From the IMG/VR virus record IMGVR_UViG_3300044712_002679, positions 116,406 through 180,405 of that record: a stretch of 64,000 nt of DNA. One strand, given 5' to 3'. How positions within the stretch are numbered: position 1 is the stretch's first letter; each line of letters begins with the position of its first letter. Both the position numbers and the translations under genes were made by a program. Below, piece by piece: positions 1,794 through 55,975 of the stretch. Below the pieces are notes generated by a model. The model did no database searches. It was given only the letters and a program-made list of their open reading frames with translations, and was not told the origin of the DNA. The stretch is from a virus.

Positions 1794-1841
1794 AATAACT
1801 AAAAATTTTATAAAAATTGTTGTTTATTAAAAATCTTTTTG

Positions 1842-1849
1842 TATCTTTG
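1842..1849 (+). promoter_or_regulatory. Bacteroidota-type -7 promoter box TAnnTTTG (TATCTTTG)
   Basis: 22 nt upstream of ATG 1872; inside conserved TTTTTGTATCTTTGTATCG..AATTAAAACAACAA leader also seen at 54461. Confidence 0.65.
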
Positions 1850-1871
1850 TATCGACAATTAAAACAACAAT

Positions 1872-2258
1872 ATGACATACGACAGCGATATAAAAACATT
1901 AATTTATGCAATGAATGAAAAACAACGACAAGATTTTTCAACATTGATAAATAATATGAAAGATTCAGATTTAGATGTGAATCTAAAAAAACAACACTCT
2001 GAAATTACTTGCGATGAAATAATTGAATCCATCGAAAGTATCACAAGTTATGAAAAAAAATCAAAACAAAAAGAAATTGCATCTAATAATGGTGAAACAA
2101 CTATCCCTATAGTAGATTGGGGTGTGCATATTAACCATTGCTGCGAAAAACATGGATGTAAATATGGTGATATTGATTGTCCAGTCACACTAAATTTAGT
2201 AACACAAAAATATCCCTGTGAATTTTGTGGGGATGAAGATTGGGATTTGGAATGGTAG
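1872..2258 (+). CDS. Hypothetical Cys-rich protein
   Basis: 128-aa ORF behind promoter box; C-terminal cluster HCCEKHGCKYGDIDCP...CEFCGDEDW; ends in TAG. Confidence 0.7.
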   Translation: MTYDSDIKTLIYAMNEKQRQDFSTLINNMKDSDLDVNLKKQHSEITCDEIIESIESITSYEKKSKQKEIASNNGETTIPIVDWGVHINHCCEKHGCKYGDIDCPVTLNLVTQKYPCEFCGDEDWDLEW

Positions 2259-2293
2259 TTCTAATCAACGAAAAGTCTAAACCATAATAAAAA

Positions 2294-2311
2294 AGCGTGA
2301 TTTTTCACGCT
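2294..2311. terminator. Bidirectional terminator hairpin between convergent genes
   Basis: AGCGTGA TTTT TCACGCT flanked by A-run and T-run. Confidence 0.7.
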
Positions 2312-2314
2312 TTT

Positions 2315-3121
2315 TTATTTATTCCATTTTAATTCGATAGCTTCAATCATTTTTGGCATATTTGCACTATAAAAACCTGCAGCATTAATGCATCCACATT
2401 CAATAATCTTATATTCAGGTTTATCATCTATTAGCACTTCACAAATATCCATAACAAATGCTTCAGCTAATTGATATATTTTAACCATCTGTTTACAAAA
2501 TTCTAATGCACCAACATCAACATCTTCGCTTCTTCTAATCCAACCACCCATTCTATAAAGACTTCCTGTGACCACTTCACCACCAATAATCCAAAATCTA
2601 AATTCTTTTGTAATATATTTAGGTGTACTAACTTGTATTTCAGTATTATCATTAAGGGATGTTTCTTCACCTTTTTTATAGAATTCTTCTTTCCAAGCAC
2701 ACCATTCATCTTTAGTATAAACTTTACCAGTAAAATATTTAGTATCTTCACATGGTCTAGCAAAAAACAATTCATCATTTATATCATCACCAAATCTTTG
2801 AATTTTTGAATCATAATTTAGAAGATTTTCCTTATAATACTTACTATAAACACGATAATCATGATTTTCATTCAATAAAGAACCAGGATGCCAACCATAC
2901 TTTTTTGCCAACCTTGCCATTTTTACTGAACCAAAACAAAATATATCCTTTCTTTTTGTTTTAAATTCAAAATCTTCAATAAAAGGTCTAACTTTAACTA
3001 CTTCATAATCAAAGTTAAATCTATCTAAAGTATTTATCAAAACATCAAAGTTTTCTTCTTTGAATGTGTTTTCTTGAATAACGTAATACATAAATAAATT
3101 TATTTTTTTAATATATAACAC
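2315..3121 (-). CDS. ATP-grasp-like protein (phage R2K-type), paralog of 58155..59207
   Basis: EFRFWIIGGEVVTGSLY...YKIIECGCINAAGFY aligns by eye with EYRFIVVDNIVVSGSLY...YKMIELNSFCCGSMY of 58155..59207; alternative start at 3091. Confidence 0.55.
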   Translation of the reverse strand: MLYIKKINLFMYYVIQENTFKEENFDVLINTLDRFNFDYEVVKVRPFIEDFEFKTKRKDIFCFGSVKMARLAKKYGWHPGSLLNENHDYRVYSKYYKENLLNYDSKIQRFGDDINDELFFARPCEDTKYFTGKVYTKDEWCAWKEEFYKKGEETSLNDNTEIQVSTPKYITKEFRFWIIGGEVVTGSLYRMGGWIRRSEDVDVGALEFCKQMVKIYQLAEAFVMDICEVLIDDKPEYKIIECGCINAAGFYSANMPKMIEAIELKWNK

Positions 3122-3186
3122 AAAATAATTAAAGTTTATATTTATTTTATTTCAGAAATTTTTGATGTTAGAAATATGATTATGAA

Positions 3187-54496: not shown

Positions 54497-54883
54497 ATGA
54501 AAGTATTTGAAATAATCTACACAAAAGAATCGGAAAAATTAACATTACCATATGGTAGTTTGAATACATATTATGTAAAAGATGACAATGTATGTTTTTC
54601 TGTTGATGTATATATTGAAACGGTAAAAGATATCGTTGAAAGTAAAAGTGAAATTGCTGTTACTGAAAAATATAGTAATTTCAATATTGTTTCAATAAAA
54701 CATATTGGTAATAAAGATTACCAATTTGAAGCTATTGCACCCGATGATTACGTTAAAATAAATTCATCAGATGTTTTAAATTCTGTAAAAAATGGACAAC
54801 GTGATAGGGTTTGTTCCGAAGAAGTGCAAGAATTTCAGAAAAATGGTAAACGAATACCACATCCTACATATTCGGAATTTTAG
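54497..54883 (+). CDS. Hypothetical protein
   Basis: 128-aa ORF. Confidence 0.6.
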   Translation: MKVFEIIYTKESEKLTLPYGSLNTYYVKDDNVCFSVDVYIETVKDIVESKSEIAVTEKYSNFNIVSIKHIGNKDYQFEAIAPDDYVKINSSDVLNSVKNGQRDRVCSEEVQEFQKNGKRIPHPTYSEF

Positions 54884-54971
54884 AAAACAAATTATTAAAA
54901 TATTACTATATACTTTATGATTAAATTTTATAATTCGCTTTCTCCACCTTCATATTCCATTAAACTAGAAT

Positions 54972-55196
54972 ATGAAAGCAATTTCGAAACTGCGACTTTG
55001 GAGAGTTGCAATCGTACACCGTAATGGTTACGAAGCACCATCAATATTGGTGGAAGCTAAAGCAAATGATGTACACGATGAAGTACGAAAATTAAATCTG
55101 AGACTTTTAGATTTTCCTGACAAATGGAGTTATCATTTGTTAGACCTCAAAAAAAAATTTGATGATAAAAGGGGAAAATGGGTAACAGAAGAATGA
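54972..55196 (+). CDS. Hypothetical protein
   Basis: 74-aa ORF followed by a terminator. Confidence 0.5.
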   Translation: MKAISKLRLWRVAIVHRNGYEAPSILVEAKANDVHDEVRKLNLRLLDFPDKWSYHLLDLKKKFDDKRGKWVTEE

Positions 55197-55201
55197 AAAA
55201 A

Positions 55202-55223
55202 AAGGTTGTCAAATGGCAACCTT
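55202..55223. terminator. Bidirectional terminator between convergent genes
   Basis: AAGGTTG TCAAATGG CAACCTT with A-run and T-run. Confidence 0.65.
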
Positions 55224-55239
55224 TTCTTTTTTATGTATC

Positions 55240-55752
55240 TTATTTATCAGATTTGACCTGATCTAATTGATTTAAACCATAATCTGGCTTATCTAATACA
55301 TCAAAATCAAAATCATATAATTTATATTTTATAATATAATGTAAAACTTTAGTGTACCAGTTAGGATCGGCTGAATAACCTTTTCGTATTTCATTCAACC
55401 AAACTTTATAATCTGTTATTTTGTTTTGAGTCAAGTTGTTGTAATATTTCTTTTTTGAAATAAATGTACAAAAATGTTGAAATGATAATGTATCAGTTTC
55501 ATATCCACGATAATGACTTCCATACTTTACACCAAAAAAATTGTTTTTATATTTACACAATTTACTATTACCATAAGCACTTTCGTGCATTGATATTCCT
55601 AATATAATACTTGGTGGAATTTCATATTCTTTCATAAGTTCAATTGAAATACTATCATATTTTTCAATAAAAGTTAATGGTGTGTGTTTTTGTGCATTTA
55701 AAATTAAAGTAAAAAATAACATTACTATTACTAGTTTAATTTTTTTTATCAT
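55240..55752 (-). CDS. Peptidoglycan hydrolase, GH73 glucosaminidase family, with signal peptide
   Basis: N-terminal MIKKIKLVIVMLFFTLILNAQ; IPPSIILGISMHESAYGNSKLCKYKNNFFGVK matches the GH73 core (..ESg.G.S.la...nN.FGiK). Confidence 0.75.
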   Translation of the reverse strand: MIKKIKLVIVMLFFTLILNAQKHTPLTFIEKYDSISIELMKEYEIPPSIILGISMHESAYGNSKLCKYKNNFFGVKYGSHYRGYETDTLSFQHFCTFISKKKYYNNLTQNKITDYKVWLNEIRKGYSADPNWYTKVLHYIIKYKLYDFDFDVLDKPDYGLNQLDQVKSDK

Positions 55753-55967
55753 ATTTTTTGTTGTTTTTTATTGATAAAATACTATAATAATTTCACCTAT
55801 TATCTTCCGCTTTGGTTTTAATTGAAAAGATTTTTTGAATAGCGGATTGTGATTTTTTATCAATAATAATTCACCTAAGAATTATTGTCATTTTTAAAAA
55901 GCTAAAAATTATTTTTTACATATATATAAAAAATTCTAATTTGTTTTTTAAATTGAATAATTTATTG

Positions 55968-55975
55968 TATATTTG
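55968..55975 (+). promoter_or_regulatory. -7 promoter box TATATTTG
   Basis: 22 nt upstream of ATG 55998. Confidence 0.55.

What the first reader, a model, noticed from the sequence alone, without database searches (positions are those of the whole stretch)
1831..55975. One conserved promoter-plus-leader class reused across the window
TAnnTTTG is the established -7 consensus of Bacteroidota primary-sigma promoters. It occurs 11-61 nt upstream of at least 15 start codons, plus two copies upstream of the candidate ncRNA units at 9587 and 9827. On the plus strand the boxes are at 1842, 4607, 17198, 23827, 39612, 40458, 44878, 47435, 51160, 52724, 54466 and 55968. On the minus strand they are at 10513, 19589 and 21642. 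A subset (1842, 54466, 19589, 21642) shares an extended block, TTTTnGTATCTTTG(T/C)...(A/C)ATTTAAAACAACAA..ATG. That block is a conserved A/C-rich, Shine-Dalgarno-free leader. This points to a Bacteroidota host and to a co-regulated temporal gene class.
Basis: partly seen in the sequence, partly recalled or inferred. Interest (0 to 1): 0.5.

Follow-up and report, generated by a model that had tools for sequence, protein, structure and literature searches.

The report
Bacteroidota-type host promoters in a phage
About eighteen gene starts in this 25% GC phage fragment carry a near-perfect copy of the promoter used by the main sigma factor of Bacteroidota bacteria, followed by a short A-rich leader with no Shine-Dalgarno site; this is real and points to the host, but it is what one expects of a phage that uses its host's RNA polymerase.

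Summary
All 17 boxes are at the stated coordinates, and 15 lie 11-61 nt before an ATG. Bare TAnnTTTG is barely enriched window-wide (166 vs 142). In sense orientation in upstream non-coding DNA it occurs 19 times vs 4.9±2.1 in shuffles, while its reverse complement shows no excess (5 vs 5.3). The real motif is narrower: TTG, a 19-22 nt spacer, then TAT(A/C)TTTG(C/T)A. It was the top motif in my own de novo search (15 bits).

Homology also points to a Bacteroidota host. PolB is closest to the 735-kb huge phages, and the A1-like protein to Cellulophaga, Flavobacterium and Maribacter phages. Related phage contigs use the same box.

The four-copy extended block is real. It is set at a fixed distance from the box, not from the ATG, and precedes unrelated proteins. 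The same cassette recurs in Bacteroidota genomes (62 of 80 titled hits).

Two corrections apply. Leaders without a Shine-Dalgarno site are window-wide (0 of 90 starts have GGAG or GAGG), not specific to this class. And this is not the only promoter class: a second oriented motif, TTAATATATA, precedes other genes and is conserved in the 735-kb phage.

Temporal co-regulation is inferred, not shown. This is a new member of a known kind.

The parts
1817..1871 (+). P1 promoter plus leader before ORF 1872-2258 (128 aa, no family match). Box TATCTTTG at 1842. Extended leader AATTAAAACAACAA.
   Evidence: position-weight-matrix score 18.9 bits
4582..4625 (+). P1 promoter before ORF 4626-4889 (87 aa). 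Box at 4607, 11 nt before the ATG, so a very short leader.
9587..9619 (-). P1 promoter (ATTTGG-N19-TATATTTG) heading an ORF-poor unit that runs from about 9582 to 9300 and ends in a strong hairpin plus T-run.
   Evidence: (fold z = -5.9)
9827..9859 (-). P1 promoter (ATTTGG-N19-TATATTTG) heading an ORF-less unit that runs from about 9822 to 9645 and ends in a terminator-like hairpin.
10486..10545 (-). P1 promoter plus leader before ORF 10485-10273 (70 aa). Box at 10513.
17173..17253 (+). P1 promoter (box at 17198) before ORF 17254-17925. A class-2 motif at 17228 lies between the box and the ATG.
19565..19621 (-). P1 promoter plus extended leader before ORF 19564-18977 (DnaJ-domain protein). Box at 19589. 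A hairpin plus T-run lies just upstream, ending near 19647.
21617..21674 (-). P1 promoter plus extended leader before ORF 21616-20879 (DNA methyltransferase). Box at 21642. A hairpin plus T-run lies just upstream.
23802..23881 (+). P1 promoter (box at 23827) before the two-gene unit 23882-26190, whose second gene is primase-like.
39587..39680 (+). P1 promoter (box at 39612) before the PIN-domain gene 39681-40418, at the strand switch.
40433..40488 (+). P1 promoter (box at 40458; best position-weight-matrix score, 20.2 bits) before 40489-44823 (HNH / INT_rpt repeat genes).
44853..44913 (+). P1 promoter (box at 44878, TTG at a 19-nt spacer) before 44914-47426.
47410..47457 (+). P1 promoter (box at 47435) before the helicase-methyltransferase gene 47458-50097.
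50635..50690 (+). It lies inside the 3' end of an HNH ORF.
51135..51197 (+). P1 promoter (box TATGTTTG at 51160; weakest member, with G at the fourth box position) before 51198-52613.
52699..52755 (+). P1 promoter (box at 52724) before 52756-54385.
54441..54496 (+). P1 promoter plus extended leader before ORF 54497-54883 (128 aa, no family match; unrelated to the 1872 protein).
55943..55997 (+). P1 promoter (box at 55968) before ORF 55998-56222 and the long rightward gene string that runs to the end of the window.

Best explanation
These are about 18 promoters of the Bacteroidota primary-sigma type, carried by a large T4-like phage related to the Mahaphage clade that infects a Bacteroidota host.

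**Anatomy of each unit**
- A -33 TTG.
- A 19-22 nt A/T-phased spacer, with an A-run about 8-12 nt upstream of the box.
- A perfect -7 box, TAT(A/C)TTTG(C/T)A.
- A short, G-poor, A-rich leader without a Shine-Dalgarno site. Its predicted median length is 20 nt if transcription starts 4-5 nt after the G, as in F. johnsoniae.

**How it most likely works (inferred)**
- Unmodified host RNA polymerase holoenzyme reads these units as soon as the DNA enters the cell.
- Host ribosomes start on the unstructured A-rich leader in the normal Bacteroidota way.
- The genes served are mostly small proteins with no family match, plus nucleic-acid and anti-defence enzymes. That fits an early class, analogous to T4 early promoters.
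- A different motif, TTAATATATA, serves other genes. By analogy it is a later, phage-factor-dependent class.

**The four-copy extended block.** It is a promoter plus whole-5'UTR cassette set at a fixed distance from the box. It sits in front of unrelated genes, and it is a variant of signals also found in host genomes.

**Shown versus inferred.** Shown: the sequence, enrichment, orientation, spacing and comparative recurrence. Inferred: the transcription start sites, the sigma factor used, the timing and the promoter strength.
For: - Sense-specific enrichment in upstream DNA: 19 vs 4.85±2.08, against 5 vs 5.27 for the reverse complement.
- TATCTTTG is the top-enriched 8-mer, with 7 of 9 copies upstream.
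- The de novo top motif is TTatTATcTTTGcA.
- The 14 best position-weight-matrix hits on both strands are all intergenic and sense-upstream. The matrix was trained on these same sites, so this mainly shows how few look-alikes exist elsewhere.
- TTG lies at a 19-22 nt spacer in 11 of 18 sites, against 1.3 expected.
- 17 of 18 boxes fit the refined TAHHTTTG consensus. The predicted median leader of 20 nt compares with published leaders: median 24 nt in F. psychrophilum, median 32 nt in B. thetaiotaomicron and mean 33 nt in F. johnsoniae.
- The E. coli-type TTGACA/TATAAT scan of the first 20 kb shows no enrichment (188 vs 179).
- No start has a Shine-Dalgarno motif, and A peaks at -3 and at -12/-13, as in F. 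johnsoniae.
- In co-directional gaps pooled from the window and eight related loci, 26 boxes are in sense and 2 in antisense.
- Relatives sharing a roughly 60%-identical A1-like protein use the same box: TAT[AC]TTTG has 9 of 18 and 6 of 11 copies upstream.
- The 735-kb phage LR756501 has 5 of 18 copies upstream.
- Host evidence from proteins: PolB is 48% identical to the phages of more than 634 kb that were predicted to infect Bacteroidetes. The A1-like protein is about 40% identical to proteins of Cellulophaga, Flavobacterium and Maribacter phages.
- The exact cassette gives 85 genome hits. Of the 80 with titles, 62 are Bacteroidota. An ORF-opening ATG follows within 40 nt in 50 of 67 hits in that group, against 4 of 18 elsewhere.
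- Gene content under these promoters: proteins with no family match, PIN, DnaJ domain, methyltransferase, HNH, helicase-methyltransferase, DenV-like, and a primase unit.
Against: - There are no transcription-start or expression data, so both promoter activity and timing are inferred.
- The bare TAnnTTTG is only weakly enriched window-wide.
- The -33 TTG is missing at the canonical spacing in about 6 of 18 sites.
- The A1-like gene is a pre-early gene in T5, yet it has no such box directly upstream here.
- Some genes with the box, such as the helicase and the primase unit, are not typical host-takeover genes. The class may therefore be early plus middle, or constitutive.
- Some huge phages encode their own sigma-70-like factors (PMC7162821).
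- No near relatives covering the 39-56 kb arm were found, so there is no orthologous footprint for most sites.
Confidence: 0.75

Rival explanations
1. Chance matches. TAnnTTTG is an AT-rich 8-mer in 75% A+T DNA and would turn up before many genes anyway.
For: Window-wide there are 166 matches against 142±10.7 expected, and 133 of the 166 lie inside genes.
Against: - In sense-upstream DNA the count is 19 vs 4.85±2.08, reached by 0 of 1000 shuffles.
- The reverse complement shows no excess.
- The narrower TAT[AC]TTTG is 13 vs 0.69.
- Flanking positions are conserved.
- The -33 TTG spacing is non-random.
- The motif is the top result of a de novo search.
Confidence: 0.02
2. They are genuine promoters but are read by a phage-encoded sigma-70-family factor that mimics the host specificity, or they are used throughout infection. 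Either way they do not define an early class. T5 uses host sigma-70 for all of its temporal classes.
For: - Huge phages can encode their own sigma-70 (PMC7162821).
- T5 uses host sigma-70 for all its temporal classes (abstract of PMC7472727, listed).
- Genes with the box include replication-type functions.
Against: - No sigma factor was found in the roughly 65 window proteins scanned.
- The box is identical to the host consensus.
- A distinct second motif serves a largely separate gene set, which is what a class switch would look like.
Confidence: 0.2
3. The extended block is a repeat left by recent duplication or recombination of a promoter cassette, comparable to the promoter-stem-loop cassettes of T4-type phages. 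It has no function beyond that of an ordinary promoter and leader.
For: - The cassettes fall into near-identical pairs. 1842 and 54466 differ at about 2 positions plus one indel. 54466 and 4607 share an exact 18-nt stretch, AATTTTTTCGTATCTTTG. 9587 and 9827 share their whole -33 to -7 region.
- The downstream proteins are unrelated.
Against: - The same 28-nt cassette is found before housekeeping genes in dozens of Bacteroidota genomes, and in phage contigs of 23-51% GC whose flanks are unrelated. That argues for convergence on a favoured signal.
- Upstream of the box, the four copies are no more alike than AT-rich DNA in general.
Confidence: 0.3
4. The conserved leader is a recognition site for a post-transcriptional regulator. 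Candidates are a translational repressor or nuclease acting on early mRNAs, as T4 RegA and RegB do, or selective handling by the phage-encoded IF3.
For: - The block keeps a fixed distance from the box and the predicted 5' end (7-8 nt) but not from the ATG (1-4 nt).
- The phage encodes IF3 and SmpB.
Against: - No regulator has been identified.
- The same leader occurs on ordinary host genes.
- A G-free A/C leader is already explained by the known Bacteroidota requirement for unstructured A-rich start regions.
Confidence: 0.08

Closest known systems
Bacteroidota primary-sigma (sigma-A, Bacteroides fragilis type) promoters: -33 TTTG / -7 TAnnTTTG, refined to TAHHTTTG in F. johnsoniae
   Same: - The -7 box is identical, and 17 of 18 fit TAHHTTTG.
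- TTG lies 19-22 nt upstream.
- A/T-rich phased spacer.
- Sense orientation before genes.
- Predicted leader lengths fall in the host range.
   Different: - They are carried by a phage and are much more uniform than host promoters. The third box position is T in all 17 reader sites, and the base after the G is always a pyrimidine.
- Transcription starts and sigma dependence are untested.
T4 early promoters (host sigma-70-dependent, with a consensus extending beyond the host hexamers, placed before many small host-takeover genes). From general knowledge.
   Same: - Many copies of a near-consensus host-type promoter with conserved flanks.
- They are often placed before short genes with no family match.
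- The phage has T4-like replication genes: a family B polymerase whose other relatives are mostly T4-like cyanophages, and a DenV-like gene.
   Different: - The sigma specificity is different.
- No timing data exist.
- No homologues of T4 early-to-middle switch proteins were identified in the window.
Bacteroidota translation start regions without Shine-Dalgarno sites (A at -3, -6, -12, -13; Baez et al. 2019, PMC6847099)
   Same: - No GGAG or GAGG at any of 90 starts.
- G is at 1-10% from -18 to -1.
- A is at 0.66-0.67 at -3, -12 and -13.
   Different: - A is not enriched at -6 here (0.42).
- The four-copy CAACAA leader is C-enriched.
- This is a feature of every gene in the window, not of the promoter class.
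T4-type late promoters (TATAAATA, no -35 element, read with phage gp55 and gp33). Iyer et al. 2021 (PMC7824862) report phage sigma and gp33 in group 2.2 jumbo phages, which include Lak.
   Same: - The second motif, TTAATATATA, is a lone TATA-type element that is oriented with genes.
- It lies 4-9 or 14-23 nt before the ATG.
- It is conserved in the related 735-kb phage and before orthologous genes.
   Different: - The sequence is not TATAAATA.
- No gp55 or gp33 homologue was found in this window.
- The genes served include replication-module neighbours rather than known structural genes.
- This concerns the second class, not the finding itself.

Membership tests
Bacteroidota primary-sigma promoter | -7 element TAnnTTTG (TAHHTTTG) | tested here: met
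   18 of 18 sites have TAnnTTTG. 17 of 18 fit TAHHTTTG; the exception is 51160, TATGTTTG.
Bacteroidota primary-sigma promoter | -33 element TTG/TTTG about 19-21 nt upstream of the -7 box | tested here: met
   TTG lies at a 19-22 nt spacer in 11 of 18 sites, against 1.3±1.1 in shuffled flanks. No shuffle of 2000 reached 11. Baez et al. also report that the -33 element is weak in F. johnsoniae.
Bacteroidota primary-sigma promoter | Located upstream of genes, in the same orientation as the gene, with a leader of host-like length | tested here: met
   - Sense 19 vs reverse complement 5 in upstream DNA.
- 26 vs 2 in co-directional gaps.
- Predicted median leader 20 nt, against a median of 24 nt in F. 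psychrophilum, a median of 32 nt in B. thetaiotaomicron and a mean of 33 nt in F. johnsoniae.
Bacteroidota primary-sigma promoter | Transcription starts 4-5 nt after the G of the box | not testable with these tools
   Needs 5'-end mapping.
Bacteroidota primary-sigma promoter | Activity depends on the Bacteroidota RNA polymerase holoenzyme with its primary sigma | not testable with these tools
   Needs in vitro transcription or reporter assays in a Bacteroidota host.
Bacteroidota primary-sigma promoter | The signal is characteristic of Bacteroidota genomes and not of other phyla | tested here: met
   - The exact cassette TATCTTTG-N6-9-TTAAAACAACAA gave 85 genome hits; 62 of the 80 titled hits are Bacteroidota.
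- An ORF-opening ATG follows within 40 nt in 50 of 67 hits, against 4 of 18 in the other phyla. Five untitled loci were counted with the Bacteroidota group.
- The baseline share of Bacteroidota among species genomes, about 10%, is from memory.
Bacteroidota start region without a Shine-Dalgarno site | No Shine-Dalgarno motif; adenines favoured at -3, -6, -12 and -13 | tested here: met
   GGAG 0 of 90 and GAGG 0 of 90. A is 0.67 at -3 and 0.66 at -12 and -13, but only 0.42 at -6. The feature is window-wide.
Bacteroidota start region without a Shine-Dalgarno site | Depletion of extra AUG triplets near the start codon | not tested
   Not computed.
Early (host-polymerase) temporal class of a lytic phage | Transcripts appear first after infection and are then shut off | not testable with these tools
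   Needs an infection time course.
Early (host-polymerase) temporal class of a lytic phage | Other genes carry a different promoter type | tested here: met
   - TTAATATATA in upstream DNA: 10 vs 2.26±1.45 in window shuffles.
- 14 of 26 copies are upstream in LR756501, p = 8e-13.
- It is oriented with genes, 13 vs 2.
- Only gene 17254 has both motifs.
Early (host-polymerase) temporal class of a lytic phage | Gene content typical of host takeover or anti-defence | tested here: inconclusive
   - In favour: many short proteins with no family match, a methyltransferase, and PIN, DnaJ-domain and HNH proteins.
- Against: also a helicase and a primase unit.
- The A1-like gene lacks the box.
T4-type late promoter (considered for the second motif only) | Single TATAAATA-like element plus phage gp55/gp33-type factors in the genome | tested here: inconclusive
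   The motif is TATA-like but not TATAAATA. No sigma or gp33 match was found among the window proteins scanned. The rest of the genome is not available.

The most novel reading that the evidence does not exclude
This phage and its relatives among the Mahaphage-type huge phages may run a two-tier programme.
- Tier one is the host-type cassette described here.
- Tier two is a clade-specific TTAATATATA promoter. In about 40% of cases it sits only 4-9 nt before the ATG, which would give leaderless mRNAs.
- Leaderless-type spacing also occurs with the host-type box: TAnnTTTG-N4-ATG appears six times in relatives.
- The phage-encoded IF3, a factor that in E. coli discriminates against leaderless starts, could then be the device that decides which class of message is translated.
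- On the same reading, the four-copy fixed 5'UTR would be a private translational tag rather than just a good leader.
Probability: 0.12. Interest if true: 0.65.

Novelty: new member of a known kind. Interest (0 to 1): 0.33.

Why it matters
- It gives a sequence-only host assignment to Bacteroidota for an uncultured, 25% GC phage fragment related to the largest known phages. That assignment agrees with the protein-homology evidence.
- It provides a ready list of about 18 candidate strong promoter-leader cassettes for Bacteroidota expression tools.
- It divides the window into transcription units.
- The contrast with the second motif gives a testable map of gene classes for a phage group that has no transcription data.
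- It does not reveal a new mechanism. Phages that use host-type promoters for part of their genes are the rule.

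Tried and rejected
- **Near-identity search.** A search of 9.6 kb against GenBank phages found nothing.
- **Relatives of the helicase-methyltransferase.** I looked for these to get orthologous footprints of the 47435 promoter. None were found.
- **E. coli-type promoter scan of the first 20 kb.** No enrichment, so it is not the relevant consensus.
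- **TAAACT.** It looked enriched upstream in the window (10 of 40 copies). The enrichment did not reproduce in 11 related loci, so I dropped it as a motif class.
- **The two ORF-less units after boxes 9827 and 9587.** Rfam gave only sub-threshold matches. The fetched loci held no homologues. ARAGORN found no tmRNA.
- **Gene duplication as the source of the extended block.** The two 128-aa proteins behind the most similar cassettes are unrelated (E = 0.66).
- **A phage sigma factor in the window.** None appeared in about 65 proteins scanned. The only hint was a 0.009 E-value match of 17254-17925 to an "RNA polymerase" PHROG, which I do not trust.
- **Intrinsic terminators as systematic partners of the promoters.** Only a few promoters (19589, 21642, 40458) follow a hairpin plus T-run, so this is not a rule.

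Full report
**What the window is**

- The 64 kb has 23-30% G+C (about 25% overall) and a strand switch near 39.6 kb. With the standard genetic code it is about 87% coding.
- It is phage DNA. Identified genes include:
  - a family B DNA polymerase (33352-34722, minus strand);
  - a T5 A1-like "DNA transfer" protein (21700-23271, minus strand);
  - a primase-like gene, a helicase-methyltransferase fusion and several HNH, GIY-YIG and LAGLIDADG endonucleases;
  - a DenV-like glycosylase;
  - 15 tRNA genes (5091-9282);
  - phage-encoded IF3 and SmpB.
- The polymerase is 48% identical to that of the 735-kb "uncultured phage" LR756501. Its other relatives are further phages of more than 634 kb, Lak phages and T4-like cyanophages.
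- Al-Shayeb et al. predicted that these largest phages replicate in Bacteroidetes (PMC7162821).
- The A1-like protein is about 40% identical to proteins of Maribacter, Cellulophaga and Flavobacterium phages.
- No near-identical record exists in GenBank phages. The same sequence occurs in a Logan assembly of SRR26046407.

**Checking the observation**

The 15 gene-proximal ones lie 11-61 nt before an ATG. That includes 55968, which is 22 nt before a 74-aa ORF that my first gene model had dropped.
- The bare pattern TAnnTTTG is hardly enriched over the whole window: 166 vs 142±10.7. 133 of the 166 copies are inside genes. Taken alone, the 8-mer would prove little.
- The signal appears when location and strand are taken into account. 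The test used 4507 nt of non-coding DNA directly upstream of starts, read in gene orientation, against 1000 dinucleotide-preserving shuffles:

| Pattern | Observed | Shuffle mean |
|---|---|---|
| TAnnTTTG | 19 | 4.85±2.08 (no shuffle reached 19) |
| Reverse complement | 5 | 5.27 |
| TAT[AC]TTTG | 13 | 0.69 |
| TTG-N18-22-TAnnTTTG | 10 | 0.38 |

- TATCTTTG is the single most enriched 8-mer. Seven of its nine copies on both strands fall in the 3.5% of sequence space that is sense-upstream.
- An expectation-maximisation motif search that I wrote, given only the 46 upstream regions of 25 nt or more, returned TTatTATcTTTGcA (15.1 bits) as its best motif. It recovered the 13 reader sites whose gene was in my gene model and one more, 50660 before the DenV-like gene. 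Its sixteenth site (upstream of 56176) has no box and I discount it.
- A position-weight matrix built from the sites is circular as a test. It does show how clean the class is: the 14 best hits on both strands of 64 kb are all intergenic and sense-upstream. Only three hits above 11 bits lie inside genes.
- A scan of the first 20 kb for the E. coli-type TTGACA/TATAAT consensus shows no excess (188 vs 179).

**Anatomy**

- Aligned on the box, the third position is T in all 17 reader sites. The fourth is A or C in 16 of 17, and the base after the G is always C or T, usually followed by A.
- Upstream there is an A-run 8-12 nt before the box, T at 14-15 nt, and a T/G-rich patch near 21-23 nt.
- TTG lies at a spacer of 19-22 nt in 11 of 18 promoters, against 1.3 expected. 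No other 5-nt spacer window comes close.
- This is the published Bacteroidota geometry:
  - -33 TTTG and -7 TAnnTTTG;
  - refined in F. johnsoniae to TAHHTTTG with the start 4-5 nt after the G;
  - AT-rich phased motifs more prominent than the -33 element;
  - a mean leader of 33 nt (PMC6847099);
  - in F. psychrophilum the same box and a median leader of 24 nt (PMC9723704).
- Using the 4-5 nt rule, the 16 gene-proximal leaders here have a median of 20 nt. Their composition is 51% A, 34% T, 9% C and 6% G.
- Pooled with relatives, the distance from G to ATG has two modes. One is a tight peak at 13-28 nt. The other is a spike at exactly 4 nt, which would give leaderless transcripts.

**The leader**

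- No Shine-Dalgarno motif occurs before any of the 90 starts (GGAG 0, GAGG 0).
- G is at 1-10% from -18 to -1, and A peaks at -3 (0.67) and at -10 to -13 (0.62-0.67). This matches the positive determinants found in F. johnsoniae, except at -6.
- "Shine-Dalgarno-free" is therefore true, but it describes the whole window, not the promoter class. It is a second, independent Bacteroidota signature.

**The extended block**

- Four sites (1842, 54466, 19589, 21642) share TATCTTTG-N7/8-A(A/T)TTAAAA(A)CAACAA.
- The exact 12-mer TTAAAACAACAA occurs three times in the window, each time in this position. A fourth copy has one mismatch.
- The block keeps its distance from the box (7-8 nt) but not from the ATG (1-4 nt), and it makes up essentially the whole predicted 5'UTR.
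- The genes behind it are two proteins with no family match, a DnaJ-domain protein and a DNA methyltransferase. The two 128-aa proteins behind the most similar pair are unrelated.
- The cassette is not private to this phage.
  - An exact-pattern scan found it in 12 IMG/VR contigs of 23-51% G+C, mostly followed within a few bases by an ATG.
  - It also found 85 places in species-representative genomes. Of the 80 hits with titles, 62 are Bacteroidota, spanning Flavobacteriales, Bacteroidales, Saprospirales and Cytophagales.
  - In that group 50 of 67 hits are followed within 40 nt by an ATG opening an ORF of at least 50 codons. Among the others it is 4 of 18, and one of those is identical to the Flavobacterium sequences.
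  - From the first residues printed, which I read from memory rather than from a family search, the downstream host genes look like ordinary housekeeping genes, for example adenylosuccinate lyase, release factor 3 and ribosomal protein S15.
- I read the block as a favoured form of the ordinary Bacteroidota promoter plus unstructured A/C leader that the phage has multiplied. The near-identical pairs (1842/54466, 54466/4607, 9587/9827) suggest copying or gene conversion as well as selection.

**Comparative support**

- Three IMG/VR contigs encode an A1-like protein about 60% identical to the window's. Their flanks cannot be aligned with the window, yet they use the same box. TAT[AC]TTTG has 9 of 18 and 6 of 11 copies in sense-upstream DNA (p = 2e-9 and 1e-6).
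- Around the polymerase the window has no such boxes for 16 kb. The ten related contigs there also have few. The class is therefore regional.
- The 735-kb phage has 5 of 18 copies upstream in the 41 kb examined.
- In co-directional intergenic gaps pooled over the window and eight related loci, 26 boxes point with the genes and 2 against.

**A second class, not in the finding**

- Many genes without the box carry (T)TTAATATATA instead. The window sites are 379+, 4575-, 7010-, 11813-, 17228+, 20714-, 29619+/29623-, 34792+ and 37255-.
- AATATATA occurs 10 times vs 2.26±1.45 in upstream shuffles.
- In LR756501, 14 of its 26 copies are sense-upstream (p = 8e-13).
- It is oriented with genes, 13 vs 2.
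- It is positionally conserved before all six orthologues of gene 32456-32776.
- Its distance to the ATG is bimodal, at 4-9 and 14-23 nt.
- Iyer et al. place Lak and other Bacteroidetes jumbo phages in a T4-like group that has a family B polymerase, no RNA polymerase of its own, and phage sigma and gp33 factors (PMC7824862). A T4-late-promoter-like reading is therefore natural.
- I found no such factor in this window, so that reading remains open.
It contradicts the phrase "one class reused across the window".

**Mechanism and verdict**

- Most likely the boxes are promoters read by the host's primary-sigma holoenzyme. They head about 18 short transcription units.
  - Ten lie in the 39.6-56 kb rightward arm.
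  - The last one heads the gene string that runs to the end of the window.
  - Two head ORF-poor units next to the tRNA cluster.
- The genes served suggest an early or early-plus-middle class, by analogy with T4.
- The motif, its enrichment, strand bias, spacing and recurrence in relatives and hosts are shown. The start sites, the sigma used, the promoter strength and the timing are inferred.
- This is a well-supported but ordinary finding: a new set of members of a known promoter type. Its practical value is for host assignment and for mapping transcription units in a poorly known phage group.

Noticed in passing
window 379+, 4575-, 7010-, 11813-, 17228+, 20714-, 29619+/29623-, 34792+, 37255-; L112 (LR756501 689490-730920): A second oriented upstream motif, (T)TTAATATATA, lies 4-9 or 14-23 nt before ATGs of genes that lack the host-type box. 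In the 735-kb huge phage 14 of its 26 copies are upstream, and it is conserved before orthologues of 32456-32776. It is a candidate phage-specific promoter, similar to a T4 late promoter.
   Followed up: partly
L002 4719, 16798, 20255; L003 951, 20516; L010; window 5954-5961 (-): The host-type box sits exactly 4 nt before the ATG six times in related contigs, and once at 5 nt in the window. With a start 4-5 nt after the G, that predicts leaderless mRNAs, which are rare in the Bacteroidota hosts studied (5.5% in F. psychrophilum).
   Followed up: partly
window 28621-29154 (+) and 15442-15882 (-): The phage encodes translation initiation factor IF3 (both domains) and SmpB (E = 1e-52). No tmRNA was detected in the window.
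   Followed up: partly
window 5091-9282 (-): A cluster of 15 tRNA genes (Lys, Trp, His x3, Ser x4, Phe x2 and others) is interleaved with homing-endonuclease genes. The host-type promoter at 9587 is separated from the first tRNA by a strong terminator-like hairpin (9337-9306).
   Followed up: partly
window 9300-9582 (-) and 9645-9822 (-): Two units, each behind a near-identical host-type promoter, have no long ORF. The first folds far better than shuffles (z = -5.9) and holds only a 31-aa ORF. The second does not fold unusually (z = -0.5). Neither has an Rfam match.
   Followed up: partly
window 41050-47300 (+): A coding repeat of about 190 nt (Pfam INT_rpt, "integrase repeat unit") is present in at least 26 diverged copies across about five consecutive genes (40489-47426).
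   Followed up: no
window 27703-27846, 36472-36867, 57888-57957: In-frame tandem repeats of 12 nt (about 10 copies), 30 nt (about 11 copies) and 9 nt lie inside three genes.
   Followed up: no
window 38514 (+), 13524 (+), 14706 (-): Three good matches to the promoter matrix lie inside genes. Two are antisense to the gene. One is 73 nt before gene 14632-14141, within the 3' end of a LAGLIDADG endonuclease gene. They may be internal or antisense promoters.
   Followed up: no
window 294-, 3091-, 5948-, 17169-, 23761-, 39498-, 54972+, 62632+ upstream regions: TAAACT(TT) is enriched upstream of starts in the window (10 of 40 copies) but not in related contigs. It is unexplained.
   Followed up: partly
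window 55753-55800 (-), upstream of 55752-55240 (glucosaminidase): This gene has an AAAAACAACAAAAAAT leader like the extended block, but only a degenerate box (TATTTTAT). It may be a weakened copy of the cassette in front of a lysis-type gene.
   Followed up: no
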